This document shows, in pieces, positions 8,799 through 39,066 of a stretch of DNA of 39,595 nt. The position numbers were made by a program, and so were the translations under genes. The notes below the pieces were generated by a model that saw nothing but the letters and a program-made list of their open reading frames with translations, ran no database searches and was not told where the DNA came from. Source of the stretch: a phage. Position 1 is the stretch's first letter; the number at the start of each line of letters is the position of its first letter. The stretch lies in the sequence record PZ544513.1; one strand, written 5' to 3'.

Positions 8799-8821
8799 CC
8801 TAAACTATCACTATAGGCTTA
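8799..8821 (+). promoter_or_regulatory. Phage RNAP promoter (phi1.1-like) CTAAACTATCACTATAGGCTT
   Basis: Member of the conserved promoter family; +1 near 8816. Confidence 0.7.
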
Positions 8822-8860
8822 GACTCAAGGTCATGACTCAAAGTCGTGGCCTTCATGATT
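8821..8860 (+). other. Conserved leader hairpin AGACTCAAGGTCA-loop-TGGCCTT (putative RNase III site, R1.1-like position)
   Basis: 7-bp stem AAGGTCA/TGGCCTT (one G-U pair) with conserved flanks; one of 3 copies at 8821, 16046 and 39024. Confidence 0.45.
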
Positions 8861-8894
8861 AACCCTAAATAAACACTACTGGAGATTTAACCGT

Positions 8895-9074
8895 ATGTAT
8901 CAGAACACTATCAACTTCGAGCGCATCCGTGAACGTCAGCAGACTGAAGGTTACATCCCTAAGGGCCGCAAGCTGAACAAGACTAAACGTGGCGGTGGTA
9001 TCAAAGGCGCTTTCAGAAACGCTGAAGGTAAAGACTCTCTGGTCAACCAAGAGAAATACTTCGTAGGAGCATAA
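8895..9074 (+). CDS. 1.1: gp1.1-like small basic protein (59 aa)
   Basis: ATG 8895 with RBS GGAGA; contains KGRKLNKTKR matching recalled T7 gp1.1; under the ORF-track size cutoff. Confidence 0.55.
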   Translation: MYQNTINFERIRERQQTEGYIPKGRKLNKTKRGGGIKGAFRNAEGKDSLVNQEKYFVGA

Positions 9075-9078
9075 CTCT

Positions 9079-9342
9079 ATGGGCCGACTTTATAGTGGCA
9101 ACATCAACGCTTTCAGAGCAGCGTGTAACAGGCTTTATCAGTTAGACTTCTGCGTGATACAGCAGGACTGGTACGACGCGCATCTTCGGAAAGAGTGCAT
9201 GAGACTTCAAGTCGAGGACCGAGCTGGTAACATCTTCGCGCTTGAGACCTTCGCACACTACGATGAAGACGTGCTGTATAATACCGCAACCGACTACCTC
9301 AACGGTCTCGCTGACCATCTCGACACATGGAGCAAAGAATAA
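9079..9342 (+). CDS. 1.2: Inhibitor of host dGTP triphosphohydrolase (T7 gp1.2 homolog)
   Basis: MGRLYSGNINAFRAA..LYQLDF.VI..DWYDAH.RKEC.RL..EDR.GN ... YDEDVLYN..TDYLN closely tracks recalled T7 gp1.2 (MGRLYSGNLAAFKAA...). Confidence 0.85.
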   Translation: MGRLYSGNINAFRAACNRLYQLDFCVIQQDWYDAHLRKECMRLQVEDRAGNIFALETFAHYDEDVLYNTATDYLNGLADHLDTWSKE

Positions 9343-10430
9343 TGACAACTATCAAAACTAACCCTCACCGCGCTGTAGATTACTCTGAGTCTGGAATTAA
9401 GAAGGCACTGGAAGCAGCCGGGTCTCTGGAAGCTGAAGTGAAGTACGATGGTGTGCGCCTGAACCTCCTGGTACTGCGTGAAGGTGAGACCTACTGGCTT
9501 AGCCGCGAGTCGAAACCTCTACCAGCCTTGGAGTGGATGAACTCTGAGTTAGGTAATGCGTGGACCCAAGCTGACTGGCGATGGTTCCTGCGTCAATCCG
9601 GCTACGAAGGTGTGGGCATGATGATTGATGGCGAGGTCATGGTCAAAGGTGTAGACTTCAACACCTCCTCAGGTCTCATCCGAACGAAGTGGCTCAAGCC
9701 TAACAACGAGGAGTTCGCTGAATACTATTCGCCGGCGACTGGTGGAAAGAAGCTCCCGTTCTGGGGATCCCGGTCACGACTTCAGGTTGTGGTATATGGC
9801 GTTGTCGATATGACAACCATAGCAGACCCGAAAGCAGAAGGTCCTATCCATAGCGTAACCCGCCTGAAGGCTGAAGCTATCGTCCCTCTCCTCCAGAAAT
9901 ACTTCCCGGAAATCGACTGGGTTCTGTCTGAGTCACACACGGTCTATGACCTTGAGTCGCTCAACTCCCTGTACGAACAGAAGCGTCTGGAAGGACATGA
10001 GGGTCTGGTAGTCAAGGACCCACTGGGTAAGTACAAGCGTGGCAAGAAGTCTGGCATGTGGAAAATGAAGCCTGAGGAGACCATCGACGGGACCGTGTGT
10101 GGCCTCGTGTGGGGGACTCCTGGTAAGGCTAACGAAGGTAAGGTCATCGGCTTTGAGGTTCTACTGGAGGATGGCATGGTGGTCAACGCCTGTGGTCTGA
10201 CTGAAGAACAGAAGGACGAGTTTACGGCTAAGGTCAAGGAGGACACGCTTGCTGCGGTTGGCATCTTTGCGCCGTACGGCATTGGTGGTAACGAACCTTG
10301 CTTCGATAACCCATACGAAGGCTGGCAGTGTGAAGTCCTCTTCATGGAGAGGTTCCCTGATGGCTCCCTTCGTCACCCCAGCTTCAAGTGCTGGCGTGGA
10401 ACCGAAGACAACCCAACGGTGAAGTCATGA
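9342..10430 (+). CDS. 1.3: ATP-dependent DNA ligase (T7 gp1.3 homolog)
   Basis: Start MTTIKTNPH aligns with T7 ligase MMNIKTNPF; adenylation motif KYDGVR; EGHEGLVVKDP, KRGKKSGMWKMKPE, SLRHPSF; ATG overlaps the gp1.2 stop (TAATG). Confidence 0.95.
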   Translation: MTTIKTNPHRAVDYSESGIKKALEAAGSLEAEVKYDGVRLNLLVLREGETYWLSRESKPLPALEWMNSELGNAWTQADWRWFLRQSGYEGVGMMIDGEVMVKGVDFNTSSGLIRTKWLKPNNEEFAEYYSPATGGKKLPFWGSRSRLQVVVYGVVDMTTIADPKAEGPIHSVTRLKAEAIVPLLQKYFPEIDWVLSESHTVYDLESLNSLYEQKRLEGHEGLVVKDPLGKYKRGKKSGMWKMKPEETIDGTVCGLVWGTPGKANEGKVIGFEVLLEDGMVVNACGLTEEQKDEFTAKVKEDTLAAVGIFAPYGIGGNEPCFDNPYEGWQCEVLFMERFPDGSLRHPSFKCWRGTEDNPTVKS

Positions 10431-10606
10431 GTACACAACTTTATATCAACATAGCAAGTGGTCAACTCTACGCTGTGGTAAATGGCGAGCTGTGGTATCG
10501 TAAACTCAAGAAGTGGGCCAAGTCCTACTACGATGAAGAGACAATATCAACCATGAGTAATCGCTACCGTAAGGCTGCTAAGGTGAACAACTTTAAGATG
10601 CGTTAA
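10427..10606 (+). CDS. Hypothetical protein (59 aa), gene 1.4-1.6-like position
   Basis: ATG 10427 overlaps the ligase stop (ATGA); the ORF-track start at 10388 is in the same frame but inside the ligase gene. Confidence 0.45.
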   Translation: MSTQLYINIASGQLYAVVNGELWYRKLKKWAKSYYDEETISTMSNRYRKAAKVNNFKMR

Positions 10607-10609
10607 CGT

Positions 10610-10650
10610 CAACCCAGTGGTCTTAGGACTGCTGGGTTTCTTTGCTTCTG
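10610..10650 (+). terminator. Putative early terminator (TE-like) hairpin AACCCAGTGGTC..GACTGCTGGGTT followed by a U-rich tract
   Basis: Stem of about 11 bp followed by TCTTTGCTTCT; position matches the T7 TE terminator after gene 1.3. Confidence 0.4.
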
Positions 10651-10665
10651 GGCCACCAGCTAGAC

Positions 10666-10688
10666 CCTAAGCTATCACTATAGGACAA
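10666..10688 (+). promoter_or_regulatory. Phage RNAP promoter CCTAAGCTATCACTATAGGACAA
   Basis: Promoter family member with one upstream substitution (AAGCT for AAACT). Confidence 0.65.
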
Positions 10689-10714
10689 CCCTAACCGACC
10701 AAAGGAGAAACCTT

Positions 10715-10969
10715 ATGTCTAAAAACTTAATGTTCAACCGATCTACTCGAAGCTTCCACCTGTCGCATAGCCCATTCAGCTTCCATAAAGCTAATCAACC
10801 ATTACCCCGCTTTGGTAAGACAGTGGCTCTGTCTCCAGCAGTTCATGCGCTAGTCACCCGCAAGTCTATGCTGAAGGCTATGGATAAAGAACAAGTTGAT
10901 GTGCCTGTGGTCATTACAAAATGGCCTCGCATTAAGCTGGCACTTCTGGTAATTAAGGAGGCGCTCTGA
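10715..10969 (+). CDS. Hypothetical protein (84 aa)
   Basis: ORF with RBS AAAGGAGA; function unknown. Confidence 0.55.
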   Translation: MSKNLMFNRSTRSFHLSHSPFSFHKANQPLPRFGKTVALSPAVHALVTRKSMLKAMDKEQVDVPVVITKWPRIKLALLVIKEAL

Positions 10970-11301
10970 TGACATACTGTGATAGCACCACATACTGTGA
11001 AGCGTGTAATGGTGACGACCGCTTCCCGCACGTTGGTAAACTTGTAGGTAACAAACTACAAGAAATTGATGACGTCCGCAAGCCGTCCCACTATCAGGTC
11101 TTTGATAGCGTGGAATCCATTGAGATTATCGCACGGTCAATGACTGTGAGTGAGTTCCGTGGGTTCTGCATGGGTAACGTCCTGAAGTATCGACTCCGGG
11201 CTGGTAAGAAGTCCGAACTGGCTACTATGGAGAAGGACCTGAACAAAGCATCCTTCTATCAGAAGCTGTTCGACTTGCATAAAGGTAAGTGCTATGCTTA
11301 A
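10969..11301 (+). CDS. Hypothetical protein, possibly gp1.7-related (DUF3310-like, KPSHYQ motif)
   Basis: 110 aa with KPSHYQV...IEIIA...GNVLKYRLRAGKK pattern recalled from the DUF3310 / T7 gene 1.7 family; ATG overlaps the upstream stop (ATGA). Confidence 0.5.
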   Translation: MTYCDSTTYCEACNGDDRFPHVGKLVGNKLQEIDDVRKPSHYQVFDSVESIEIIARSMTVSEFRGFCMGNVLKYRLRAGKKSELATMEKDLNKASFYQKLFDLHKGKCYA

Positions 11302-11381
11302 TGATATTGTGTATTACTGTGTAGTATGCGCCGGAGTTGGAGCACTAATCCTTTTAATATATTGGGCCATAGAGGTGTAAT

Positions 11382-11480
11382 ATGGAAAAGCCGAGTGAGT
11401 GGTGCGAGCGTAAATTTGAGGAGACAGGTAACGTCGATTACCTTCAGCTCTACAACTTATGGAAGGAGCGTGGTCTATGA
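11382..11480 (+). CDS. Hypothetical small protein (32 aa), gene 1.8-like position
   Basis: ATG 11382 after AGAGGTG; stop overlaps the gp2 start (ATGA). Confidence 0.3.
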
Positions 11481-11635
11481 CTGACGTAGAGAAGAAGTAC
11501 ATCGTGGAGCTTGAGGGTCGCATTCAGTCCTTCGAGGTTCCGGTGTACGCAAAGTCTCTTGAAGAGGCTACCCTGAAGTCCCAAGAGTATGAGGACGCTG
11601 GGTTTGTGGTCGGACGGATTCGCCCTGAGACCTAA
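11477..11635 (+). CDS. 2: Inhibitor of host RNA polymerase (T7 gp2 homolog)
   Basis: 52 aa; [14 protein letters not shown]...[11 protein letters not shown] matches recalled T7 gp2 (SFEVPIYAETLDEA...AGFEVTRVRP); RBS GGAAGGAG. Confidence 0.75.
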
Positions 11636-11653
11636 ACTATCACTGTAGGACAG
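11631..11653 (+). promoter_or_regulatory. Phage RNAP promoter (phi2.5-like) CCTAAACTATCACTGTAGGACAG
   Basis: Promoter family member with A to G at -3 (CACTGTAGG). Confidence 0.6.
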
Positions 11654-11692
11654 ACGTCCAGTTCGTAACTTTAAATTAGGAGATTTACACCA

Positions 11693-12391
11693 ATGGCTAA
11701 AGAGCAACTGAAGACTTTCACCACTCCGGTAGCTGGTATCGTTGAGCCTTACGCATGGCTGAACAAAGCAGACACCAAGTTTAATGAACGTGGTGAGCAT
11801 AAGGTTAACCTGACATTCGACCTGAGCAACCCGAAGGTCCGTAAGATGATTGATGTCTTACAGAAGATTCACGACGATGCGTATGCGAAAGCACTCGCAG
11901 ACCACGAGAAGAACCCACCTCAGGTTCAGCGTGGCAAGAAGCCTATTGAACCACGAGAGGGCGACATGCCGTGGATTGAGAATGGTGACGGTACTGTTAC
12001 CCTGAAGTTTAAATGCTTCGCGTCTTACCTGAAGGATGGTAAGTCAGAGCCTATCGTATTACGGTTCTACGACACCGATGCTAAGTTAATCCGTGACGTC
12101 CCGAATATTGGCGCTGGCTCCAAACTGAAGGTCAAGTTCAAAGTCCTGCCGTTCAAGTGGAACGCTGCGACTGGTGCAAGCGTTAAGCTCCAGCTTGAGT
12201 CCTGCCTTCTGGTAGAACTGAAGGAGTGGAAAGGTGATGGTACTGGTGGCGATGGCGGCTGGGGTGATGATGAAGACCTCGGTACTGGCTACAAAGCATC
12301 AACCGATGGTGACTTCGGGTCTGATGACTTCGGTGACGATGGTTACGAAGGTGGTGACGACTCCAACTCTGGTGGCGATTACGACTTCTAA
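11693..12391 (+). CDS. 2.5: Single-stranded DNA-binding protein (T7 gp2.5 homolog)
   Basis: 232 aa with OB-fold-like N-terminal half and Gly/Asp-rich acidic tail ending in the aromatic residue F (..GGDYDF), the hallmark of gp2.5. Confidence 0.92.
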   Translation: MAKEQLKTFTTPVAGIVEPYAWLNKADTKFNERGEHKVNLTFDLSNPKVRKMIDVLQKIHDDAYAKALADHEKNPPQVQRGKKPIEPREGDMPWIENGDGTVTLKFKCFASYLKDGKSEPIVLRFYDTDAKLIRDVPNIGAGSKLKVKFKVLPFKWNAATGASVKLQLESCLLVELKEWKGDGTGGDGGWGDDEDLGTGYKASTDGDFGSDDFGDDGYEGGDDSNSGGDYDF

Positions 12392-12843
12392 TGGCCCAAT
12401 GGTCTGCAAAACGGGGGCACTCTGTGGGTGCCTACCGCTCTGGACTTGAAGCCAAGAACCAGCAGTGGCTGGAACAGAACGGCGTCAAAGCGGAGTACGA
12501 AAGCCATTATATCAACTATGTGATTCCGGCTTCCGACCACAAGTACACACCAGATTTTATCCTTCCCAACGGTATCATCGTGGAGACCAAAGGTATCTTC
12601 GATAGTGATGACCGTAAGAAGCACCTTCTGGTACGAGAACAGCACCCAGAGTTAGACATCCGGTTCGTGTTCTCAAGTTCCCGCTCCAAGCTATACAAAG
12701 GGTCTCCGACCACGTATGGCGCATGGTGCGAAAAGAACGGCTATAAGTATGCCGATAAGTTCATCCCGGTTGAGTGGCTCCGAGAGGCGACTGTACGTCT
12801 GCCTTCAGGTATACTCATCCCCAAGAAGAAAGGAGTTAAGTGA
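12391..12843 (+). CDS. 3: Endonuclease I, Holliday junction resolvase (T7 gp3 homolog)
   Basis: VIPASDHKYTPDFILPNGIIVETKGIFDSDDRKKHLLVREQHPELDIRFVFSSSRSKLYKGSPTTYG matches recalled T7 gp3 almost residue for residue. Confidence 0.96.
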   Translation: MAQWSAKRGHSVGAYRSGLEAKNQQWLEQNGVKAEYESHYINYVIPASDHKYTPDFILPNGIIVETKGIFDSDDRKKHLLVREQHPELDIRFVFSSSRSKLYKGSPTTYGAWCEKNGYKYADKFIPVEWLREATVRLPSGILIPKKKGVK

Positions 12844-13334
12844 TGAGCAAGAAGTTTAAACTGTTAGTAGATGCGCATGGCTGGCCTAGTGGGACTATAG
12901 TTACCAAGTGTGAGAATGACCCCGTACCAGATTCAAGAATGACCCTAGTTGAGTGCCAGACTCCAGGCGCATACAAACATGGGTCTAACGGCTGCAATAC
13001 TCAGCCTGAGGGTATGTGGGGAGCATGGGTCCTTAATTGGAAACTTGAGGAAATCAAGCCGGAAGAGAAACTCACTGGTGTCCAAACCACTCAAGTCCTG
13101 CCAGCTTCGAGCGTACCGCCTGTGACTTTGAAGCGTGAAGTCCTGACCATCGACAAGATTGGTGTAGGCCAGACGTTCATCGTCCATGGAAAGCCTGAAG
13201 AAGTTTACGTGAAGATTAGCAACTCACACGTCTTCAACCATAAGCATCTCCAGATGCACACCACGGACGCACAACGCTTCACCCAGCACCTGAATCTGGT
13301 TGTCGTAGAATTGGTGGTGTACAATGGTAAGTAA
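12843..13334 (+). CDS. Hypothetical accessory protein (163 aa) inserted between endonuclease I and lysozyme
   Basis: ORF with RBS AAAGGAG, start overlapping the gp3 stop and end overlapping the lysozyme start; T7 has no gene at this junction. Confidence 0.6.
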   Translation: MSKKFKLLVDAHGWPSGTIVTKCENDPVPDSRMTLVECQTPGAYKHGSNGCNTQPEGMWGAWVLNWKLEEIKPEEKLTGVQTTQVLPASSVPPVTLKREVLTIDKIGVGQTFIVHGKPEEVYVKISNSHVFNHKHLQMHTTDAQRFTQHLNLVVVELVVYNGK

Positions 13335-13782
13335 GGTACAGTTCAATCCACGGTCCCGGACCGACGCTATCTTCATTCACTGTTCGGCTACCAAGCCAGA
13401 GATGGACATCGGGGTAGAGACCATCCGTATGTGGCACAAGCAGCAAGGCTGGCTGGACGTAGGCTACCACTTTATCATCAAGCGCGATGGTACTGTGGAA
13501 GAGGGACGCCCTGTCAATGTCGTAGGGTCACACGTTAAGGACTGGAACTCACGGTCTGTAGGCGTCTGCCTTGTAGGTGGAATTGACGCTAAGGGCAAGT
13601 TTGAAGCTAACTTCACTCCAGCCCAGATGAACTCCCTGCGCAACAAGCTGGCTGACCTGAAGGACTTGTATCCTCAGGCAGAAATCAAGGCTCACCACGA
13701 TGTAGCACCAAAGGCTTGCCCAAGTTTCGACTTGCAGCGCTGGCTTAACACTAACGAACTGGTCACTTCCGACCGAGGCTAA
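13324..13782 (+). CDS. 3.5: N-acetylmuramoyl-L-alanine amidase / T7 lysozyme (gp3.5 homolog)
   Basis: FIHCSATKP, WLDVGYHFIIKRDGTVEEGR, GVCLVGGIDAKGKFEANFTPAQM, HHDVAPKACPSFDL, C-terminal ELVTSDRG, all colinear with T7 gp3.5. Confidence 0.97.
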   Translation: MVSKVQFNPRSRTDAIFIHCSATKPEMDIGVETIRMWHKQQGWLDVGYHFIIKRDGTVEEGRPVNVVGSHVKDWNSRSVGVCLVGGIDAKGKFEANFTPAQMNSLRNKLADLKDLYPQAEIKAHHDVAPKACPSFDLQRWLNTNELVTSDRG

Positions 13783-13796
13783 TAAGGAGAATTAAC

Positions 13797-14009
13797 ATGA
13801 TTAAACTTATTGAATTTCTGGGTCGTCTGGTTGTGCGTGGCTATTCTCGTGCTGCGAGTGTGGAACGAAAAGTCGCATCTGCTGCGGCTAAAGGTGCGGA
13901 AGCGGCTGCTGCGGAAGCGGATAGTCTGCGCATCAAGTCTCTGGACGCTGGCCTACGTGCCAAAGGTCTTGACAAGAAAGCCGAGCAACTGAAAGGCTTC
14001 TTCAGCTAA
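13797..14009 (+). CDS. Hypothetical protein (70 aa), Ala/Lys-rich with hydrophobic N-terminus
   Basis: ORF with RBS AAGGAGA 7 nt upstream. Confidence 0.5.
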   Translation: MIKLIEFLGRLVVRGYSRAASVERKVASAAAKGAEAAAAEADSLRIKSLDAGLRAKGLDKKAEQLKGFFS

Positions 14010-14027
14010 ACTATCACCTTAGGGATG
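14005..14027 (+). promoter_or_regulatory. Phage RNAP promoter variant GCTAAACTATCACCTTAGGGATG
   Basis: Promoter family member with two substitutions in the -4/-2 region (CACCTTAGGGA). Confidence 0.5.
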
Positions 14028-14072
14028 AGACCACGGGTCTTGTCCCTTTGTTCGCATTTGAGATTAAGAAAT

Positions 14073-14152
14073 GTCTCCATAGCTCAAACGGTAGAGCGGC
14101 GGGTCGTGATGGCCTATTGCGATTAGGGTTCGAATCCCCCGTGGAGACGCCA
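14073..14152 (+). ncRNA. tRNA-like element (canonical D-arm, T-loop and 7-bp acceptor stem but non-canonical anticodon arm)
   Basis: GTCTCCA..TGGAGAC acceptor stem, D-arm TAGCTCAAACGGTAGAGC, T-loop GGTTCGAATCC, 3-prime GCCA; anticodon stem pairs poorly in every register I tried. Confidence 0.4.
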
Positions 14153-14163
14153 CTAAGGAGTGA

Positions 14164-16043
<1,880 letters not shown>

Positions 16044-16045
16044 GT

Positions 16046-16090
16046 CTAGACTCAAGGTCATTCATAGCGAGTGGCCTTTATGATTAGACT
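16046..16090 (+). other. Conserved leader hairpin AGACTCAAGGTCA-loop-TGGCCTT (putative RNase III site, R4.7-like position)
   Basis: Second copy of the hairpin family; immediately upstream of the DNA polymerase gene. Confidence 0.45.
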
Positions 16091-16107
16091 AAAGCGGAGG
16101 ATTAACC

Positions 16108-18279
16108 ATGTTTGACCTTAAGAGTATCTGGGGTTCTGACATCGAGACCAACGGTCTCCTTGATACAGTCTCCCAGTTTCACTGTGGGGTCCTGATTAAC
16201 GCCGAGTCGAATGAGACCCTTAAGTATGGGGTAGCTCCGATGGTCGGTATCGTCGGCGGCTTCAAAGAGTATGTTCATAAAGTGGAAGAGATTGCCGCAT
16301 CACCTGATGGTATGCTGGTATTCCATAACGGTATCAACTATGACGTCCCGGCTATAGACAAGCTGAAGCGTTTGTACTTTGGGAAACGCTTTAACTTCCC
16401 GAAACATAAGATGATTGATACCTTGGTGCTGGGACGCTTGATGTATCCAAACATTAAGTTCTCAGACATGGGCGCGGTGAAAGCTGGTCGTCTGCCACCT
16501 AAGATGATGGGACGCCAGTCTCTTGAGGCTTGGGGCTATCGTCTCGGTGAGATGAAAGGTGAGTACAAACACGATTACGTTGCCAAGTGCAAGGCTGAAG
16601 GTATCGAATATAAGGCTGGGGACGAATGGTTGTTCCCGTCTCAGGAGATGCTGGACTATAACGTTCAAGACGTTGTGGTCACACTGGCGTTGTTCAAGAA
16701 GTTCCTGACTGACAAGTATTACTTCCAGTCTGAACAGTTCGCTTTCGACCAGATTTATGCGTTGCGTCTGGAACATGATGCTGCGTGGACCTGTGCGAAG
16801 ATGGAGCGTAATGGCTATCCGATGAACACCGAGATGGTCGAAGGCTTATATCGTGAACTCACTGTCAAACGAGCAGAGTTGCTGGACAAGCTGCGTTCGA
16901 CTTTCGGTAGCTGGTACGCACCAAAGGGAGGCAAGGAGTTCTTCAGGCATCCACGGACAGGTAAGGACCTTCCGAAGTATCCGAGGGTCGTGTATCCTAA
17001 GGTCGGTGGCATCTTTAAGAAGCCGAAGAACAAAGCTCAACGCTTAGGTCTTGAACCTTGTGAACGCGATACGCGAGACACGATGGAAGGAGCACCATTC
17101 ACGCCAATCACTTACGTTGAGTTTAATCCGGGAAGCGGAGACCACTTAGCGAAAGTCCTGATGGAGCGTGGCTGGGAGCCTGTTGACTTCACTGACACCG
17201 GGAAACCTGTAGTCGATGACGAGACGTTGGAACACGTTAAGTTACCAGACGCAGAGGCTCAGGCTTGCGTAGAGCTGGTCCGTGAGTATCTGGTAGTCCA
17301 GAAGCGCATCGGTCAGGCGGCTGAAGGTAAGAACGCATGGTTGAAACTTGTAGGTCCAGACGGACGTATGCACGGCTCAATAAACCCATGCGGGGCAGTA
17401 ACCGGACGTGCGACCCATAGTTCACCAAACATGGCTCAGGTCCCGGCTAACGGTGCTCCATATGGTGAGACTTGCCGTGGTGCTTTCGGTGCAGCGTGGA
17501 ACAAGAAGGACGGTAAGCCAGACCCTTGGATTCAAGTTGGTGTGGATGCCTCAGGTCTTGAGCTTCGTTGTCTTGGGAACAGAGCGGCTCCGTTTGATGG
17601 TGGTGCATATGCGAAGACTGTGGTAGAAGGTGACATCCACTGGGCCAACGCAGTAAACGCTGGGTTAGCACCTAACGTCCAACGCGATAAGTCTAACCAC
17701 GACCATGAGGCTTTCCGTAACAACGCTAAGACGTTCATCTACGCGTTCCTGTATGGTGCAGGGGCCGCTAAGATTGGACTGATAGTAGGCGGTGGTAAGA
17801 AGGAAGGTTCAGCGCTCATGAAGAAATTCATTGAGGGTACACCAGCTATCAAGGACCTCAGGGAAGCTGTAAGTAATACGTTAATCTCAGACTCTAAGTG
17901 GGTGGACGGAGAGAACATCGTTAAATGGAAACGCCGTTGGTTGCGTGGACTCGATGGTCGCCGTATACACATACGGTCTCCACACTCAGCACTGAACGCA
18001 TTACTTCAAGGTGATGGTGCGGTAGTATGTAAGCACTGGATTGTTGAGACTGAACGTATGCTCGAAGAGGCCGGGTATGTCCACGGCTGGGAAGGAGACT
18101 TTGCGTACATGGCATGGGTCCACGACGAATTGCAGATTGCAGCTCGGAACATGGAGATTGCCGAAGATATTCGCAGGATTGCTCAACTTGCTATGCGTAA
18201 GGTGGGTGAGTTCTATAACTTTAAATGTGTCCTTGATACTGAAGGTAAGCTTGGACCAACTTGGAAGGAGTGTCACTAA
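16108..18279 (+). CDS. 5: DNA polymerase (T7 gp5 homolog, family A)
   Basis: 723 aa; N-terminal 3-prime to 5-prime exonuclease motif (DIETNGL), polymerase motifs (KTFIYAFLYGAG, VHDEL), colinear with T7 gp5. Confidence 0.97.
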   Translation: MFDLKSIWGSDIETNGLLDTVSQFHCGVLINAESNETLKYGVAPMVGIVGGFKEYVHKVEEIAASPDGMLVFHNGINYDVPAIDKLKRLYFGKRFNFPKHKMIDTLVLGRLMYPNIKFSDMGAVKAGRLPPKMMGRQSLEAWGYRLGEMKGEYKHDYVAKCKAEGIEYKAGDEWLFPSQEMLDYNVQDVVVTLALFKKFLTDKYYFQSEQFAFDQIYALRLEHDAAWTCAKMERNGYPMNTEMVEGLYRELTVKRAELLDKLRSTFGSWYAPKGGKEFFRHPRTGKDLPKYPRVVYPKVGGIFKKPKNKAQRLGLEPCERDTRDTMEGAPFTPITYVEFNPGSGDHLAKVLMERGWEPVDFTDTGKPVVDDETLEHVKLPDAEAQACVELVREYLVVQKRIGQAAEGKNAWLKLVGPDGRMHGSINPCGAVTGRATHSSPNMAQVPANGAPYGETCRGAFGAAWNKKDGKPDPWIQVGVDASGLELRCLGNRAAPFDGGAYAKTVVEGDIHWANAVNAGLAPNVQRDKSNHDHEAFRNNAKTFIYAFLYGAGAAKIGLIVGGGKKEGSALMKKFIEGTPAIKDLREAVSNTLISDSKWVDGENIVKWKRRWLRGLDGRRIHIRSPHSALNALLQGDGAVVCKHWIVETERMLEEAGYVHGWEGDFAYMAWVHDELQIAARNMEIAEDIRRIAQLAMRKVGEFYNFKCVLDTEGKLGPTWKECH

Positions 18280-18563: not shown

Positions 18564-18769
18564 GTGAATACTTACGGGTCCTAGCGGCCCTTAAGTCCTG
18601 CCCGAAGACCTTCCAGTCCAACTATGTGCGCAACAACGCTGCACTTGTGGCTGAGGCTGCGAGTCGTGGACATCTAAGCTGCCTGTCTATGGATGGGCGT
18701 AACAACGGTGCGTGGGAGATTACCGCTGCTGGCACCAAGTTCCTGAACCAACACGGAGGATGCCTGTGA
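18560..18769 (+). CDS. 5.7: gp5.7 homolog
   Basis: MSEYLRVLAALKSCPKTFQSNYVRNNAALVAEAASRGHLSCLSMDGRNNGAWEITAAGTKFL is near-identical to recalled T7 gp5.7. Confidence 0.85.
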   Translation: MSEYLRVLAALKSCPKTFQSNYVRNNAALVAEAASRGHLSCLSMDGRNNGAWEITAAGTKFLNQHGGCL

Positions 18770-23559: not shown

Positions 23560-23582
23560 ACTAAACTATCACTATAGGGAGA
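23560..23582 (+). promoter_or_regulatory. Phage RNAP promoter (phi10-like, full consensus) CTAAACTATCACTATAGGGAGACC with leader stem-loop
   Basis: Only copy matching GGGAGA at +1..+6; transcript begins GGGAGACC...GGTTTCCC hairpin, as in the T7 gene 10 leader. Confidence 0.85.
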
Positions 23583-23684
23583 CCAAGAGACAGACTCAAG
23601 GTTTCCCTATTACTTCAGTCCATACGGATTGGGCGTACAGTAAGTAATAAACTTTATCTTTCAATTGAATAGGAGAATTATCAT

Positions 23685-29447: not shown

Positions 29448-29458
29448 GAGGAGGACTA

Positions 29459-31741: not shown

Positions 31742-31745
31742 CATA

Positions 31746-34700: not shown

Positions 34701-35633
34701 GACATAGTGGAGCATAGCCTGACTGGTAGTAAGCGTAAGTTCGATGACCGCTGGCTGAAGACCGCTGGTATATCTGACGAGCAGTGGAGTGGAATTAAGT
34801 CCCTAATCCGTGAGTCAGTGACTCGTGGGCCAGACGGGAAGTACACCATCAAGGATAAGAAGGCGTTCAGTCAGGACCCAAGGGCTATGGACCTGTGGCG
34901 TATGGGTGACACCATCGCTGACGAGACGTTACTCCGGCCTCATAAGCTGTCAAACATGGACGCCAAGGCTTATGGTCCTCTCGCTAAGACTGTCCTTCAG
35001 TTTAAGAACTTCGTCATCAAGTCTATCAATGGGAGAACCATGCGAACCTTCTATAACGCCACGAAGAACAACAGAGCGATTGACGCTGCACTGTCGACCG
35101 TGATGTCTATGGGTCTGGCTGGTATCTACTACATGGCTCAGGCGCATGTCAAGGCTTATGCTATGCAGGATGGTCGAGACCGTGACTACCTTAAGCAAGC
35201 TCTGGACCCAACGATGATTGGCTATGCGGCCCTGTCCCGTAGTTCACATCTTGGTGGCCCACTTGGGGTAGCTAACATTCTGGGAGGCATCGCTGGATAT
35301 GAGGACACTAAGATGCTCCGTTCGTCTATCCTACCTCGTTCTCCTACAGAGAAGCCTGAGCGTGCCATCGCGTATGGTGCAGCTACAAGTGACCCTGTGA
35401 TGAATGTTGTTGGTAACTTCTTGGAGCAGGTTCCAGCTTTCGGATATGCTGCTAACGTTGGCGCTTCGGCTTACAACTTGGCTGGCTACCTCAAGGCTGA
35501 TACTCGTGTCAACGAGCGTGACTACATGACCGGGATGTATAATACGTTCCGTGAACTGGTTCCGAACGACCCCATTACCCAGAAGCTGCTGCTTGGAACG
35601 TTTGAGGAGCAAGGCATCCACATCAAGGACTAA
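31746..35633 (+). CDS. 16: Internal virion protein D (T7 gp16 homolog), ejection/cell-wall-penetrating protein
   Basis: 1295 aa; long stretches colinear with T7 gp16 (DLVRSPTGMQSGASGK, ENPAMFG, GTYVPHVY, DKAYGISHTEQF, NNSFLEARNLFDSD, RRVNGDIAIMAGTGKTTKE, TNYLLDAGRQG, FSQDPRAMDLWR, NNRAIDAALS). Confidence 0.96.
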   Translation: MATRGIRNNNPGNIRVSKDQWEGMTGDDGAFVTFDSPESGVRALGKNLLSYGRQGYDSIEKIINRWAPPNENDTKAYIDSVVAATGIPATQSLDLSDPDTLSSLAQAISFHETGSRYDPEVYQKGVARALNGISPKTPPVSANVFDALTEGLKAKPKVALGENLPTAAGLNIEGQAPESPNESFGEMFYKATGETMQEQEDRSTWFGFGAATEAEVKNSMVGVAIRAGQTEDSLDVIGDVFNPTRWNNHKWSREELDQIRNAGVLPQYYGVITGGSPQNLTELINLALENQKLDQEKAKAGTGAQLAAGVIGAGVDPLTYVPIAGQVGKGGKLVNKMFTVAAQSGALAGASEIARTSVAGGDAHVAEAILGGALFGGGMTAIADGLGRALGRNTNEFAGPATRLEARETARNVDGQDLSRLPIQEGEQTFSHQGVKFADVPNEPGSVRLEDGSILIGENPLNPKTRQVFDEVIEPERAAAGVNLGGLTEIGLKLLRSENPEIRGVAADLVRSPTGMQSGASGKIGTTASDVFERLRSVDHRFYNDIDDAVTEALKDPYFQTAFWRDSGAFRQDIYQRVSMAIEDGSGNLKAELTPGELKVYDLLKNQFDAKREMMENPAMFGRPDAQSIFPGSRFKGTYVPHVYSKQMKELYIKELGSPEALQEAIKKSWLTSYASRPEVKKRVDEALLEADPTLTPEGLAAAVDKYANDKAYGISHTEQFERSSVMEENINGLVGLENNSFLEARNLFDSDMSIVLPNGQTFSVNNLREWDMDKIVPAYNRRVNGDIAIMAGTGKTTKEMKDLVETMMNKAGDDGKLKGEVSTLRDTLKILTGRARRDGADDAAFATVMRMMTDLSFFAKNAYMGVQNLTEIGGMLARGNVRALLHGVPMFRDLAFRNKKVGASEIKDLHNVIFGKELDDSIRPSKQDVIDRLRSYSDLSRGTATALGTAKYYTGELVVRSPFTKVLNGTTNYLLDAGRQGFLSDIVEHSLTGSKRKFDDRWLKTAGISDEQWSGIKSLIRESVTRGPDGKYTIKDKKAFSQDPRAMDLWRMGDTIADETLLRPHKLSNMDAKAYGPLAKTVLQFKNFVIKSINGRTMRTFYNATKNNRAIDAALSTVMSMGLAGIYYMAQAHVKAYAMQDGRDRDYLKQALDPTMIGYAALSRSSHLGGPLGVANILGGIAGYEDTKMLRSSILPRSPTEKPERAIAYGAATSDPVMNVVGNFLEQVPAFGYAANVGASAYNLAGYLKADTRVNERDYMTGMYNTFRELVPNDPITQKLLLGTFEEQGIHIKD

Positions 35634-35651
35634 ACTATCACTATAGGAAAC
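35629..35651 (+). promoter_or_regulatory. Phage RNAP promoter (phi17-like) CTAAACTATCACTATAGGAAACT
   Basis: Promoter family member overlapping the gene 16 stop. Confidence 0.7.
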
Positions 35652-35697
35652 TGGAGGCGCTACCATAGGTCTCCATTTAAATCACAAAGGAGGCATA

Positions 35698-38229
35698 ATG
35701 TCCACGATTACACAATTCCCTTCAGGAAACACTCAGTACAGGATTGAGTTCGACTACCTAGCCAGAACGTTTGTTGTTGTTACGCTGGTGAATAGCTCTA
35801 ACCCTACCCTGAACCGTGTACTGGAAGTTGGTCGAGATTACCGATTCCTTAATCCAACGATGATTGAGATGTTGGTTGACCAATCAGGTTTCGACATAGT
35901 TCGTATTCACCGTCAGACTGGAACTGACTTAGTGGTAGATTTCAGGAATGGCTCAGTGTTGACAGCTAGTGACCTGACCAATTCAGAGCTTCAGGCTATC
36001 CATATTGCAGAAGAAGGTCGAGACCAAACGGTTGACTTAGCGAAGGAATATGCCGATGCTGCTGGTAGCTCTGCTGGCAACGCTAAGGATAGCGAGGACG
36101 AAGCACGCCGAATCGCTGCGAGTATCAGGGAAGCTGGTCTAATTGGCTATATTACCCGTCGCTCCTTCGAGAAAGGCTACAACGTTACAACATGGAGCGA
36201 GGTCCTGCTATGGGAAGAGGATGGTGATTATTACCGCTGGGATGGTACGCTTCCAAAGAACGTTCCTGCTGGTTCAACTCCTGAAACTTCCGGTGGGATT
36301 GGATTAGGTGCGTGGGTTAGTGTTGGTGATGCTGCTTTAAGAAGTCAGATTTCAAACCCGGAAGGGGCAATACTCTACCCGGAATTGCAGATGGCAAGAT
36401 GGCGTGATGAGGGTGATGTTCGAGGCTGGGGTGCTAAAGGGGATGGTGTAACAGATAGTACGGAGAATATAGCTGCTTCACTAAATTCTCAAAAAGCTGT
36501 CGTAGCATCAGAAGGTGTATTCTCTAGTTCTGGTATTAATAGTAATTACTGTAACTTAGACGGTAGAGGTAGTGGCGTGCTAAGTCACCGTTCCAGTACA
36601 GGTAACTACTTAGTATTTAACAATCCACGTACAGGTCGCTTAAGTAATATTACGGTAGAAAGTAATAAGGCGACTGATACAACTCAGGGACATCAGGTAT
36701 CTCTTGCCGGTGGAAGTGATGTTACTGTAAGTGACGTTAACTTCTCAAACGTTAAAGGTACTGGTTTAAGTTTAATCGCATACCCTAATGATGCGCCACC
36801 TGATGGACTTATGATTAAAGGCATTCGAGGTAGCTATTCCGGATATGCTACTAATAAGGTAGCAGGATGCGTACTTGCTGACTCATCAGTTAACTCCCTC
36901 ATAGATAACGTCATTGCTAAGAACTACCCTCAGTTCGGAGCAGTAGAGTTGAAAGGTACAGCCAGTTACAACATAGTAAGTAATGTTATAGGGGCAGATT
37001 GCCAGCATGTAACTTACAACGGCACTGAAGGGCCAATAGCTCCTTCTAATAACCTTATCAAGGGGGTGATGGCTAATAACCCTAAGTATGCAGCGGTTGT
37101 TGCAGGCAAAGGAAGTACGAACTTAATCTCAGACGTGCTCGTAGATTACTCAACTTCTGATGCTAGGCAGGCTCATGGTGTTACCGTAGAAGGGTCTGAT
37201 AACGTCATAAATAATGTGCTTATGTCAGGATGTGATGGTACTAACTCTTTAGGACAAGGGCAGGCTGCTACAATTGCACGCTTTATAGGTACAGCTAATA
37301 ACAACTATGCGTCTGTATTTCCTAGCTACAGTGCTACAGGTGTTATTACTTTCGAATCCGGCTCTACCCGTAACTTCGTAGAGGTAAAGCACCCTGGAAG
37401 GAGGAACGACCTTCTCAGTTCTGCTAGTACTATTGACGGTGCAGCTACTATTGACGGCACTAATAATAGTAACGTAGTGCACGCACCCGCCTTAGGGCAG
37501 TACATAGGTAGTATGTCAGGTAGGTTCGAATGGAGGATTAAGTCCATGTCACTCCCTTCAGGCGTTCTTACTTCTGCTGATAAGTACAGAATGCTTGGTG
37601 ATGGTGCTGTATCATTAGCTTTAGGTGGGGGTACTTCTTCTCAAGTTCGCCTATTTACTTCTGATGGTACTTCTCGGACAGTGTCCCTAACCAACGGTAA
37701 CGTGCGTCTTTCTACCAGTAGCACAGGCTATTTGCAGTTAGGTGCTGATGCAATGACCCCAGATAGTACTGGTACATACTCATTAGGTTCCGCCAGTCGA
37801 GCATGGTCTGGCGGTTTTACTCAAGCAGCATTCACTGTTACCTCAGATGCTCGGTGTAAAACAGAACCTCTTACTATCTCAGATGCCTTACTGGATGCTT
37901 GGTCTGAAGTTGACTTTGTGCAGTTTCAGTATTTGGATCGTGTTGAGGAGAAGGGTGCAGACTCAGCTAGATGGCACTTTGGCATCATAGCTCAGCGAGC
38001 TAAGGAGGCTTTCGAACGTCACGGTATAGATGCACATCGCTATGGCTTCTTATGCTTCGACAGTTGGGATGATGTATACGAGGAAGATGCCAATGGCTCT
38101 CGTAGACTGATTACACCAGCAGGTTCCCGCTACGGTATTCGTTACGAGGAAGTACTGATATTAGAGGCTGCGTTGATGCGGCGGACTATTAAGCGTATGC
38201 AGGAAGCATTAGCTGTTATGTCTAAGTGA
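35698..38229 (+). CDS. 17: Tail fiber / tailspike: T7 gp17-like N-terminal adaptor, central putative beta-helix enzymatic domain, C-terminal S74-type intramolecular chaperone
   Basis: N-terminal 150 aa colinear with T7 gp17 (F.YLAR.FVVVTL, DYRF, LRAYDL / LTASDL, IHIAEE.RD); C-terminus SDARCKTEP...WHFGIIAQRAKEAF resembles recalled chaperone-of-endosialidase autoproteolytic domains; AT-rich middle. Confidence 0.9.
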   Translation: MSTITQFPSGNTQYRIEFDYLARTFVVVTLVNSSNPTLNRVLEVGRDYRFLNPTMIEMLVDQSGFDIVRIHRQTGTDLVVDFRNGSVLTASDLTNSELQAIHIAEEGRDQTVDLAKEYADAAGSSAGNAKDSEDEARRIAASIREAGLIGYITRRSFEKGYNVTTWSEVLLWEEDGDYYRWDGTLPKNVPAGSTPETSGGIGLGAWVSVGDAALRSQISNPEGAILYPELQMARWRDEGDVRGWGAKGDGVTDSTENIAASLNSQKAVVASEGVFSSSGINSNYCNLDGRGSGVLSHRSSTGNYLVFNNPRTGRLSNITVESNKATDTTQGHQVSLAGGSDVTVSDVNFSNVKGTGLSLIAYPNDAPPDGLMIKGIRGSYSGYATNKVAGCVLADSSVNSLIDNVIAKNYPQFGAVELKGTASYNIVSNVIGADCQHVTYNGTEGPIAPSNNLIKGVMANNPKYAAVVAGKGSTNLISDVLVDYSTSDARQAHGVTVEGSDNVINNVLMSGCDGTNSLGQGQAATIARFIGTANNNYASVFPSYSATGVITFESGSTRNFVEVKHPGRRNDLLSSASTIDGAATIDGTNNSNVVHAPALGQYIGSMSGRFEWRIKSMSLPSGVLTSADKYRMLGDGAVSLALGGGTSSQVRLFTSDGTSRTVSLTNGNVRLSTSSTGYLQLGADAMTPDSTGTYSLGSASRAWSGGFTQAAFTVTSDARCKTEPLTISDALLDAWSEVDFVQFQYLDRVEEKGADSARWHFGIIAQRAKEAFERHGIDAHRYGFLCFDSWDDVYEEDANGSRRLITPAGSRYGIRYEEVLILEAALMRRTIKRMQEALAVMSK

Positions 38230-38444
38230 GTAATACTGGTACGGTATTTTCGCACAATGAAATCGTTGAACACACTGACGAGGAGGGTAATGTCACTACT
38301 ACGGAAGAACCTGTATACACCGAGGTGGTTATTCACGAAGAGGGTGAGGAGTGGGGGGTGTTCGGCCTGACGGAATTTTCTTTGCTGAAGCCGCTTATCA
38401 GAGAAGAAACTGGAAAGAATCGAAGCCAGACTTTCTGCTCTTGA
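38226..38444 (+). CDS. Hypothetical acidic protein (72 aa, GTG start); doubtful
   Basis: GTG overlaps the gene 17 stop (GTGA); Glu-rich; no RBS; overlaps another candidate ORF (38351..38569). Confidence 0.25.
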   Translation: MSNTGTVFSHNEIVEHTDEEGNVTTTEEPVYTEVVIHEEGEEWGVFGLTEFSLLKPLIREETGKNRSQTFCS

Positions 38445-38565
38445 ACAGAAGTAATAAACAAAATCACTTTGCCATTAGGTTGGTGGGGGTAGAGACTAAC
38501 TACACGCTAACCAACGTATGTAACAACTTTGGGTCACGGACGACCCGCTTTAAACTGGAGGTTTT

Positions 38566-38760
38566 ATGATTGAGTTAGACTTCAAGAATGAGGTCCTTAA
38601 AGCCTCTCCTATCGTCGGGACCGCTGCGGCTGATGGTGCCAGTCGGTTCTTCTTCGGACTTACACTGAACGAATGGTTCTACGTTGCAGCTATCGCGTAC
38701 ACCGTTGTCCAGATTGGTGTGCTAGTCTACAAAACGATTAAAGGAGGTGGTAAAACATGA
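38566..38760 (+). CDS. 17.5: Type II holin (T7 gp17.5 homolog)
   Basis: ASPIVGTAAADGASRFFFGLTLNEWFYVAAIAYTVVQIG is near-identical to recalled T7 gp17.5; RBS CTGGAGG. Confidence 0.93.
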   Translation: MIELDFKNEVLKASPIVGTAAADGASRFFFGLTLNEWFYVAAIAYTVVQIGVLVYKTIKGGGKT

Positions 38761-39020
38761 CGCAGATGGACTTAGAGAAGTTCCTCTTGATGCTTGATAC
38801 TGAACGTGCTAGACTCATGCTGCAAGACCTGCGGGATGACTCTAAGCGTTCACCTCAGCTTTACAACGCCATTGAGAAGCTACTGGCTCGTCACAACTTC
38901 GTGCTAAGTAAGGTGTCTGTGGACGAGAAGACGCTGGCTGATATGGAGGCCCTGAACGCAGAGTACGATAAGGTGCTTTCAGCGACTGAGGATAATGACA
39001 CCGGGTATGGCGTTCAATAA
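38757..39020 (+). CDS. 18: Small terminase subunit (T7 gp18 homolog)
   Basis: 87 aa; LLMLDTERARLMLQDLRDDSKRSPQLYNAIEKLLARHNF aligns with recalled T7 gp18 (FLEMLDTAMAQRMLADLSDHERRSPQLYNAIDKLLDRHKF). Confidence 0.93.
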   Translation: MTQMDLEKFLLMLDTERARLMLQDLRDDSKRSPQLYNAIEKLLARHNFVLSKVSVDEKTLADMEALNAEYDKVLSATEDNDTGYGVQ

Positions 39021-39023
39021 GTG

Positions 39024-39066
39024 TTAGACTCAAGGTCATCGTCAGGTGGCCTTTATGGTTAACACT
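39024..39066 (+). other. Conserved leader hairpin AGACTCAAGGTCA-loop-TGGCCTT (putative RNase III site, R18.5-like position)
   Basis: Third copy of the hairpin family, between gene 18 and the spanin gene. Confidence 0.45.

What the first reader, a model, noticed from the sequence alone, without database searches (positions are those of the whole stretch)
8821..39066. Second conserved hairpin family (AGACTCAAGGTCA-loop-TGGCCTT) at three intergenic positions
Copies at 8821-8860, 16046-16090 and 39024-39066 share a conserved 5-prime flank, a 7-bp stem with one G-U pair, and a conserved 3-prime flank (atgattaac-like). Their positions before gene 1.1, before gene 5 and after gene 18 correspond to T7 RNase III sites R1.1, R4.7 and R18.5. 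The 11-mer AGACTCAAGGT also recurs just downstream of the promoters at 5495 and 23577.
Basis: partly seen in the sequence, partly recalled or inferred. Interest (0 to 1): 0.4.

Follow-up and report, generated by a model that had tools for sequence, protein, structure and literature searches.

The report
T7-type RNase III processing sites
The three conserved hairpins are this K1F-like (T7-family) phage's versions of the long-known signals at which the host enzyme RNase III cuts long phage transcripts into separate messages, so the finding is correct but ordinary.

Summary
The window is a Kayfunavirus (K1F-like, T7-family) genome, rotated to start at gene 19. The three copies are real. CTCAAGGTC-N-TGGCCTT occurs exactly three times, against 0 in shuffles.

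Each copy folds as a 7-8 bp lower stem, a 4/5-nt internal loop (ACUC / yAUGr) and a 9-12 bp upper stem (the 12th pair of site 1 is marginal). This is the architecture of phage T7 R1.1, and the motif matches the T7 site consensus CUCAAGGUC..GUGGCCUUUAU^GAU.

A covariance model built only from T7 and T3 sites ranks the three copies as the top three hits in the window (61.5, 47.7 and 45.4 bits). They lie where T3 and T7 have R1.1, R4.7 and R18.5. Covariation across 109 distinct relatives supports both helices, and all matches up to E = 0.01 are on the transcribed strand.

Four more sites of the same class lie in the early region.

The 11-mer claim is imprecise. The copy at 23592 sits in the 5' hairpin of the gene 10 leader. 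The 10/11 match at 5495 is the start of a leader before gene 1 that folds no better than shuffles.

Verdict: interpretation supported; already known kind; low interest.

The parts
8814..8867 (+). Site 1, the R1.1 equivalent. Lower stem 8814-8822 / 8859-8867, with a C8818/C8863 mismatch. Internal loop ACUC 8823-8826 / CAUGA 8854-8858. Upper stem 8827-8838 / 8842-8853, loop 8839-8841 (the innermost U8838-A8842 pair is marginal). Predicted single cut after U8856 (CUUCAU^GAUUAA).
   Evidence: z = -4.4; 47.7 bits with the T7+T3-only model. Cut position inferred by homology to T7 UUUAU^GAU (my recollection of the mapping literature).
16043..16090 (+). Site 2, the R4.7 equivalent, placed as in T3 directly before gene 5. 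Lower stem GGUCUAG 16043-16049 / UUAGACU 16084-16090. Internal loop ACUC / UAUGA. Upper stem AAGGUCAUUC / GAGUGGCCUU (16054-16063 / 16069-16078) has the same sequence as the T7 R1.1 upper stem. Predicted cut after U16081, 26 nt before the gene 5 ATG at 16108.
   Evidence: 45.4 bits; T3 R4.7 annotation.
39020..39066 (+). Site 3, the R18.5 equivalent, between gene 18 (38757-39020) and gene 18.5 (39117-39566). Lower stem AGUGUUAG 39020-39027 / UUAACACU 39059-39066. Upper stem 39032-39040 / 39045-39053, loop GUCA. It shares UAUGG (G instead of A after the cut) with T7 and T3 R18.5. Predicted cut after U39056.
   Evidence: z = -3.6; 61.5 bits; gene identities.
8804..8817 (+). Core of a phage RNA polymerase promoter (ACTATCACTATAGG), with the inferred start at G8816. 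Transcripts from it begin with the 5' strand of the lower stem of site 1. T7 has the same layout at phi1.1A/R1.1 and T3 at phi1.1/R1.1.
   Evidence: T3 annotation, where phi1.1 5984-6006 overlaps R1.1 6003-6053. The start point is inferred by analogy with T7-type promoters.
3244..3313 (+). Early-region site of the same class (variant ACUACAGG..CCUGACUGAU, like T7/T3 R1), before ORF 3325-3603.
   Evidence: 22 bits; 25.3 bits, E = 0.005.
3599..3661 (+). Early-region site of the same class, before the ocr-like gene 0.3 (3684-4190). This is the R0.3 position.
   Evidence: 41.3 bits; 38.6 bits.
4424..4493 (+). Early-region site, a near-duplicate of 3244-3313, before ORF 4503-4730. This is the weakest member.
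   Evidence: 18.3 bits, E = 0.08; 20 bits, E = 0.07.
4789..4852 (+). Early-region site of the same class (GAGAGGCC..GGCCUCAAAGAU), before ORF 4949-5146.
   Evidence: 32.1 bits; 27.5 bits.
23577..23607 (+). 5' hairpin of the gene 10 leader, GGGAGACC-loop-GGUUUCCC. Its loop and 3' arm contain the fourth exact copy of the 11-mer (23592-23602). It is not a member of this family (no model hit). The stem arms are the same as in the hairpin I recall at the 5' end of T7 phi10 transcripts, and as in the T7 R3.8 hairpin.
   Evidence: No match at E <= 10. T7 R3.8 sequence.
5495..5533 (+). Start of the transcript from a phage promoter before gene 1, GGACUCAAGGUCU.. (10/11 match). The fold is only a 5-bp plus 3-bp hairpin and is no better than shuffles. 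It is not a member of the family.
   Evidence: (z = -0.3). No model hit. Conserved in K1F.

Best explanation
The three elements are T7-type RNase III processing signals in the phage's polycistronic transcripts. They are the equivalents of R1.1, R4.7 and R18.5.

In the RNA, each forms about two helical turns of duplex: a 7-8 bp lower stem and a 9-12 bp upper stem. An asymmetric 4/5-nt internal loop interrupts the duplex.

Host RNase III binds this duplex. Because of the loop, it cuts only the 3' strand, at yAU^Gr. The predicted cuts are after U8856, U16081 and U39056.

The upstream message is left with a 3'-terminal hairpin that protects it from 3'-5' exonucleases. The downstream message (gene 1.1-1.3, gene 5 onward, gene 18.5-19) begins at pGAU/pGGU.

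Shown here: the sequence, the fold, the covariation, the strand, the synteny and the match to T7/T3 sites. Inferred: that cleavage happens at all, its exact position, and its effect on mRNA stability.
For: 1. Motif. It occurs exactly three times, with 0 in shuffles.
2. Fold. The bipartite fold is the same as for T7 R1.1, R4.7 and R18.5, with z-scores of -2.7 to -4.4.
3. T7 sequence. The same consensus lies at the remembered T7 cleavage coordinates. The alignment with 7 T7 sites has 11 of 19 pairs with compensatory changes.
4. Independent model. The T7+T3-only model R2 gives 61.5, 47.7 and 45.4 bits, the top three hits of the window.
5. Model specificity. Model R1 recovers 8 of the 10 annotated T3 'RNase III recognition site' stem-loops and nothing else in T3.
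6. Covariation. In 109 distinct sequences from relatives, 93% of cells are paired, against 26-49% when partners are slid. Fourteen of 19 pairs change on both sides. The covariation score is 0.453, against 0.16 in shuffles.
7. RNA, not DNA. Two U-G pairs are conserved. The reverse strand scores 9 bits against 66. Every match listed up to E = 0.01 in the loci of relatives is on the + strand.
8. Position. The sites are intergenic, with the same neighbours as in T3 and T7.
9. Literature.
   - R1.1 has an asymmetric 4 nt/5 nt internal loop and a primary site cleaved in vivo (PMC6121014).
   - Internal loops limit cleavage to one phosphodiester, and the resulting 3' hairpins protect the RNA (PMC1540722; PMC3867540).
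   - T7 has ten RNase cleavage sites, and pairing a promoter with an RNase cleavage site is a common arrangement in its genome (PMC6938266).
Against: - There is no experimental end-mapping for this phage or, as far as the held literature shows, for any Kayfunavirus.
- The K1F records annotate no such sites.
- The top of the upper stem of site 1 (AUGAC/GUCGU) has no counterpart among the T7 and T3 sites, so its distal-box compatibility is untested.
- The phage lacks a homologue of the T7 gene 0.7 kinase, which stimulates RNase III. Processing efficiency could therefore differ from T7.
- T7 grows without RNase III (PMC6938266), so the fitness value of the sites is modest or conditional.
Confidence: 0.93

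Rival explanations
1. The hairpins mainly act as stabilising or translation-controlling structures, without needing cleavage. One form would be 3'- or 5'-end protective hairpins. Another would be sequestration of the gene 5 ribosome-binding site by an outer helix (CUUCU 16037-16041 with GGAGG 16095-16099) until the structure is cut or opened.
For: RNAfold adds a 5-bp outer helix that pairs CUUCU with the gene 5 Shine-Dalgarno GGAGG at site 2. Site 1 lies at the very 5' end of transcripts from the promoter at 8804.
Against: - The outer helix has two G-U pairs.
- Its 5' strand lies in the last codons of the upstream ORF.
- It is absent from the Kayfunavirus relatives in which a promoter replaces that ORF (L089-L102).
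- Nothing comparable exists at sites 1 and 3.
- This reading does not explain the near-invariant internal-loop sequence shared with experimentally cleaved T7 sites.
Confidence: 0.04
2. They are transcription terminators or pause signals for the host or the phage RNA polymerase.
For: They are stable G+C-containing hairpins in intergenic regions on the transcribed strand.
Against: - The scans found no terminator-like site at any of the three. The only terminator-like match in the scanned regions is unrelated, at 39109-39122.
- The hairpins are followed by yAUGrUUA, not a U-run.
- Genes downstream of each site need read-through, as in T7.
- The lower stem and internal loop covary or are conserved in a way a terminator does not require.
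Confidence: 0.01
3. They are DNA-level repeats, such as recombination or replication-origin modules or cruciforms, travelling with promoter cassettes. On this reading the RNA fold is incidental.
For: Site 1 lies between a promoter and a decayed promoter-like sequence. From memory, this is the layout of the T7 primary origin region, phi1.1A-R1.1-phi1.1B. In some relatives the site before gene 5 is fused to a promoter in the same way as site 1.
Against: - The conserved U-G pairs would be A-C mismatches on the other strand or in a cruciform.
- The models score the reverse strand at about 9 bits.
- All matches up to E = 0.01 are on the transcribed strand.
- Compensatory changes keep RNA pairing, including G-C to G-U steps.
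Confidence: 0.02

Closest known systems
[quoted passage not shown]
   Same: - The architecture matches: lower stem, 4/5-nt internal loop and upper stem.
- It shares the sequence ACUCAAGGUCAU..GUGGCCUUyAUGAUU.
- Site 1 has the same position, after gene 1, directly after a phage promoter and before the gene 1.1-1.2-1.3 block.
- The 10-bp upper stem of site 2 has the same sequence as that of R1.1.
   Different: - The lower-stem sequences are different, though they still pair.
- The upper stem of site 1 is 1-2 bp longer, with a different top and loop.
- Two small ORFs separate gene 1 from site 1 here.
- The sequence in the position of the downstream promoter (T7 phi1.1B) is degenerate here.
- No cleavage data exist for this phage.
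Phage T3 'RNase III recognition site' R4.7 and R18.5 (stem_loop features in AJ318471), and T7 R4.7 and R18.5
   Same: - T3 R4.7 lies directly before gene 5, as site 2 does.
- T3 and T7 R18.5 lie between genes 18 and 18.5, as site 3 does.
- T7, T3 and site 3 share the R18.5-specific UAUGG.
   Different: - In T7, R4.7 precedes gene 4.7, which this phage lacks.
- The lower stems and apical loops differ.
- T3 and T7 each have 10 sites. This phage has 7 of the canonical class plus one R3.8-like hairpin.
- No canonical site was found at the R1, R1.3, R6.5 or R13 positions.
E. coli RNase III sites in rRNA precursors and other fully paired substrates
   Same: They use the same enzyme and need about two turns of double-stranded RNA.
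   Different: Those substrates are cut on both strands. The phage sites carry an internal loop that limits cutting to one strand and leaves a 3' hairpin (PMC1540722; PMC3867540).

Membership tests
T7-type (Studiervirinae) RNase III processing site | A hairpin of about two helical turns, split into a lower and an upper stem by an asymmetric internal loop (4 nt / 5 nt in R1.1). | tested here: met
   RNAfold centroids of sites 1 and 2 show a 7-8 bp lower stem, a 4/5-nt loop and a 10-12 bp upper stem, the same as T7 R1.1, R4.7 and R18.5 folded in the same call. In site 3 the upper stem has 9 bp, and ACU/GGU pairing shrinks the loop, as the shared UAUGG suggests for T7/T3 R18.5. The R1.1 description is in PMC6121014.
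T7-type (Studiervirinae) RNase III processing site | Shares the sequence consensus of mapped T7 sites: CUCAAGGUC..GUGGCCUUUAU^GAU. | tested here: met
   The T7+T3-only covariance model gives 61.5, 47.7 and 45.4 bits, the top three hits in the window.
T7-type (Studiervirinae) RNase III processing site | Helices are maintained by compensatory changes among paralogues and orthologues. | tested here: met
   11 of 19 pairs change on both sides in a MAFFT alignment. On 109 distinct sequences, 14 of 19 pairs do so and 93% of cells are paired, against 26-49% for slid partners (that alignment was fitted to the model).
T7-type (Studiervirinae) RNase III processing site | Lies on the transcribed strand, in an intergenic region, at positions syntenic with R1.1, R4.7 and R18.5. 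| tested here: met
   K1F has matches at the same three positions.
T7-type (Studiervirinae) RNase III processing site | No inhibitory base pairs in the proximal and distal boxes of the upper stem. | tested here: inconclusive
   - The first 8 bp of the upper stem, next to the loop, are the same in all three copies as in T7 R1.1.
- All 10 bp of site 2 have the R1.1 sequence.
- The top of site 3 (CAUC/GGUG) matches T7 R1; T7 R0.3 has the near-identical UAUC/GGUG.
- The top of site 1 (AUGAC/GUCGU) has no mapped counterpart.
- I did not have the exclusion table to score it.
T7-type (Studiervirinae) RNase III processing site | Cut by host RNase III in vivo or in vitro at a single phosphodiester in the 3' side of the loop. 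| not testable with these tools
   Needs end mapping in rnc+ and rnc- hosts, or cleavage with purified enzyme.
Intrinsic (rho-independent) terminator | A G+C-rich hairpin followed directly by a U-run. | tested here: not met
   No terminator-like match at any of the three sites.
Any curated Rfam family | A match to an Rfam covariance model. | tested here: not met
   Nothing matched at the three sites at the gathering threshold or at E <= 1. No Rfam model matched this class of site.

The most novel reading that the evidence does not exclude
The unpaired nucleotides (ACUC / yAUGA) and the two U-G pairs are nearly invariant across genera. That is more conservation than RNase III is known to require. 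Promoter-plus-site units also recur at different positions: before gene 1.1 here, and before gene 5 in some relatives. One reading that the data do not exclude is that the element has a second role. It could be recognised by a phage-encoded factor, or it could act as a promoter-linked cassette that moves between intergenic positions by recombination.
Probability: 0.06. Interest if true: 0.4.

Novelty: already known. Interest (0 to 1): 0.08.

Why it matters
The main value is for annotation. Public records of K1F and its relatives list only coding genes here, so seven processing sites and their predicted cut positions can be added.

This rests on my guess that the unseen first family is the early-region group of sites.

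Knowing the transcript boundaries helps in engineering these therapeutic-candidate coliphages, for example when choosing insertion points that do not break a processing signal. It does not open a new biological question.

Tried and rejected
1. Rfam, at gathering and E <= 1 thresholds, found nothing at the sites.
2. The terminator reading is rejected. No terminator-like site was found at any of the three sites.
3. Ribosome-binding-site sequestration at gene 5: the outer helix is weak and is not conserved where a promoter replaces the upstream ORF. I kept it only as a 4% rival.
4. The 11-mer downstream of two promoters as extra family members is rejected. The sequence at 5495 folds no better than shuffles (z = -0.3). 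The copy at 23592 lies inside the gene 10 leader hairpin. Neither is hit by either model. K1F has AGACTCAATGT at the gene 10 position, so that copy is only semi-conserved.
5. Within-genome homogenisation of the copies is not supported. The window's copies are 67-69% identical to each other, T7's are 59-69%, and orthologous pairs are 56-65%.
6. Literature on RNase III sites in K1F or Kayfunavirus: nothing relevant is held. The K1F genome paper and Panayotatos and Truong 1985 could not be opened.
7. The T7 and K1F GenBank tables do not list RNase III features. The T3 record does, and I used it as the annotated reference.
Full report
**What the window is.** A 12-kb stretch is 99.9% identical to Escherichia phage vB_EcoP-22664UKE3-2 and about 96% identical to LM33_P1 and other Kayfunavirus genomes. 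The window is therefore a K1F-like member of the T7 family (Studiervirinae). It is rotated so that it starts at the large terminase gene (gene 19, 1-1731). Landmarks are as follows:

| Feature | Coordinates |
|---|---|
| RNA polymerase (gene 1) | 5570-8251 |
| gene 1.2 homologue | 9079-9342 |
| ligase | 9327-10430 |
| primase/helicase | 14167-15867 |
| DNA polymerase (gene 5) | 16108-18279 |
| gene 18 | 38757-39020 |
| gene 18.5 | 39117-39566 |

The phage promoter core ACTATCACTATAGG occurs 8 times exactly and 3 times with 1-2 mismatches, all on the + strand.

**The observation.** The pattern CTCAAGGTC-N(6-30)-TGGCCTT matches exactly three times, and none of 100 shuffles matches. The exact 11-mer AGACTCAAGGT occurs four times; the fourth is at 23592.

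The "conserved flanks" are really a 4/5-nt internal loop (ACUC on the 5' side, CAUGA, UAUGA or UAUGG on the 3' side). Outside the loop is a lower stem of 7-8 bp, and its sequence differs in each copy:

| Site | Lower stem, 5' strand / 3' strand |
|---|---|
| 1 | UAGGCUUAG / UUAACCCUA (C/C mismatch) |
| 2 | GGUCUAG / UUAGACU |
| 3 | AGUGUUAG / UUAACACU |

RNAfold gives this bipartite fold for all three, with z-scores of -4.4, -2.7 and -3.6. It gives the same shape for T7 R1.1, R4.7 and R18.5.

**Comparison with T7 and T3.** I recalled the T7 cleavage coordinates from Dunn and Studier 1983 (890, 1468, 3138, 5887, 6448, 13892, 36856). At each one the T7 sequence reads ..CTCAAGGTC..GTGGCCTTTA-T^GAT.. 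or a close variant. The recalled coordinates therefore fall on the same motif.

The GenBank record of T3 (AJ318471) annotates ten stem-loops as "RNase III recognition site", R0.3 to R18.5. T3 R1.1 overlaps promoter phi1.1 and precedes gene 1.1. T3 R4.7 lies directly before gene 5. T3 R18.5 lies between genes 18 and 18.5. These are the arrangements of sites 1, 2 and 3.

A first model (R1: seven T7 sites plus the three window copies) found 8 of the 10 annotated T3 sites and nothing else in T3. It missed the short atypical R3.8 and R13. In K1F it found sites at the same three positions, plus three early ones.

A second model (R2) was built only from T7 and T3 sites, so it is independent of the window. 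It ranks the three copies first in the whole window, on both strands: 39017-39076 at 61.5 bits, 8812-8875 at 47.7 bits and 16039-16101 at 45.4 bits, with E-values from 8e-11 to 2e-7.

**More members in the window.** Both models also find four early-region sites: 3599-3661, 4789-4852, 3244-3313 and 4424-4493. The last is marginal (E about 0.07-0.08). They carry the variant ACUACAGG..CCUGACUGAU, which resembles T7 and T3 R1. They precede early ORFs, including the ocr-like gene 0.3.

If so, the two families are one class. No canonical site was found at the R1, R1.3, R6.5 or R13 positions. Gene 1.2 overlaps the ligase start, which leaves no room for an R1.3.

**Conservation and covariation.**

| Loci from viral contigs | Result |
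|---|---|
| 80 RNA polymerase loci | 72 have a match downstream of gene 1 |
| 75 DNA polymerase loci | 54 have a match upstream of gene 5 |
| 80 terminase loci | All 8 with at least 93% protein identity have a match upstream, plus 3 of those at about 70%; none of the 50-60% group |

All matches listed up to E = 0.01 are on the + strand: 217 in the RNA polymerase loci, 72 in the DNA polymerase loci and 17 in the terminase loci.

On 109 distinct sequences, 93% of cells are paired, against 26-49% when partners are slid by 1-3 columns. Fourteen of 19 pairs show changes on both sides. The covariation score is 0.453, against 0.161 for shuffles.

The lower stem changes wholesale between clades and stays paired. 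Examples are GGAUUAG/UUAACCC, AGAGUUAA/UUAACUUU, GAGGGACAA/UUGACCUUC and AGGAACAU/AUGUCCCU.

The loop nucleotides are nearly invariant. The conserved U-G pairs and the roughly 9-bit score of the reverse strand show that the constraint acts on the + strand RNA and not on the DNA.

**Mechanism.** The held literature says the following:
- R1.1 is a hairpin with an asymmetric 4 nt/5 nt internal loop and a primary site cleaved in vivo and in vitro (PMC6121014).
- Internal loops restrict RNase III to one phosphodiester, and the resulting 3' hairpin protects against 3'-5' exonucleases (PMC1540722; PMC3867540).
- T7 transcripts are polycistronic and are processed at ten sites, and pairing a promoter with an RNase cleavage site is a common arrangement in the T7 genome (PMC6938266).

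From memory, the early T7 messages end in ..CCUUUAU-OH and begin with pGAU. By homology the cuts here would fall after U8856, U16081 and U39056. That leaves leaders of 38, 26 and 60 nt before the next start codons.

Site 1 starts at the first transcribed base of the promoter at 8804. Promoter-initiated RNAs would therefore shed a hairpin of about 41 nt. Read-through RNAs from gene 1 would gain a 3' hairpin.

These steps are inferred, because no end-mapping exists for this phage group in the held literature.

**The 11-mer near two promoters.** At 5495 the sequence is GGACUCAAGGU, a 10/11 match. It is the start of the transcript from a promoter before gene 1. It forms only a weak hairpin (z = -0.3) and is not a model hit.

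At 23592 the 11-mer lies in the loop and 3' arm of the hairpin GGGAGACC..GGUUUCCC at the 5' end of the gene 10 leader. The arms of that hairpin are the same as in the T7 R3.8 hairpin. From memory, they are also the same as in the T7 phi10 leader. K1F has AGACTCAATGT there. Neither sequence is a further site of this family.

**Rivals.**
- Terminators are excluded, because no terminator-like site lies at any of the three positions.
- An outer helix that pairs with the gene 5 Shine-Dalgarno is weak and is not conserved in relatives.
- A DNA-level role is contradicted by the U-G pairs and the strand bias.

**Verdict.** The elements are orthologues of textbook T7 RNase III sites in a phage whose public relatives lack the annotation. 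Novelty: already known. Interest: low.

Noticed in passing
window 14073-14152 (+): A tRNA-like gene lies between the promoter at 14010 and the start of gene 4 (14167). ARAGORN calls it tRNA-Thr (CGT), 80 nt. Rfam tRNA scores 29.7 bits, just above the gathering score of 29. T7, T3 and K1F have none. The same stretch is in 35 phage records, mostly Kayfunavirus relatives, and a few of them annotate it as tRNA-Thr or tRNA-OTHER.
   Followed up: partly
window 14022-14058 (+): An R3.8-like element lies here. The transcript from the promoter at 14010 begins GGGAUGAGACCACGGGUCUUGUCCC-UUUGUUCGCAUU. This is an 11-bp 5' hairpin followed by the same UUUGUUCGCAUU that follows the T7 R3.8 hairpin (GGGAGACCACAGCGGUUUCCCUU-U^GUUCGCAUU). 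By homology the cut would fall after about 14049. The canonical-site models do not find it, just as they miss T3 R3.8.
   Followed up: partly
window 5483-5569 (+): A full-consensus phage promoter (ACTATCACTATAGG, start about 5495) sits directly upstream of the phage RNA polymerase gene, where T7 and T3 have RNase III site R1. It is conserved in K1F (2484). It would let the phage polymerase transcribe its own gene.
   Followed up: partly
window 8859-8884 (+): Right after site 1 lies TTAACCCTAAATAAACACTACTGG. It matches the promoter just upstream (TTAACCCTAAACTATCACTATAGG) at 19 of 24 positions, but TATA is changed to TACT. It looks like a decayed second promoter. From memory, this echoes T7 phi1.1A-R1.1-phi1.1B, the T7 primary origin region. 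Its first bases form the 3' strand of the lower stem of site 1.
   Followed up: no
L089-L102 (Kayfunavirus relatives), about 2420-2500: In these relatives the site before gene 5 is fused to a phage promoter (ACTATCACTGTAGG-ATAGACTCAAGG..), in the same way as site 1. In the window's clade a small ORF (15846-16043, phrog_13039) occupies that place. This suggests that promoter-plus-site units are gained or lost as modules.
   Followed up: partly
window 2430-2735 (+): A tandem duplication of about 150 bp lies in the non-coding region after gene 19..CATCAAGTCTCCCCCATAGGCCTCTTTCAGTCCAGACCAAAGGCC..GGGACTATGGGT, seen twice at about 2440-2590 and 2590-2735. It lies in the region that holds the genome ends in T7-like phages.
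   Followed up: no
whole window: There is no homologue of T7 gene 0.7, the protein kinase reported to raise RNase III activity during T7 infection (abstract of PMC4858673). The best tblastn E-value is 1.2. The early region between 3684 and 5570 has only ORFs of 168 aa or less.
   Followed up: yes
L113-L125 etc., about 6270-6400 (Teseptimavirus relatives): The models also recover R6.5-type sites, in which a whole phage promoter sits inside the apical loop (AAACTCAAGGTCCCTAAATTAATACGACTCACTATAGGGAGATAGGGGCCTTTATGATT). No such site lies at the promoter before gene 6.5 in the window (19764).
   Followed up: partly
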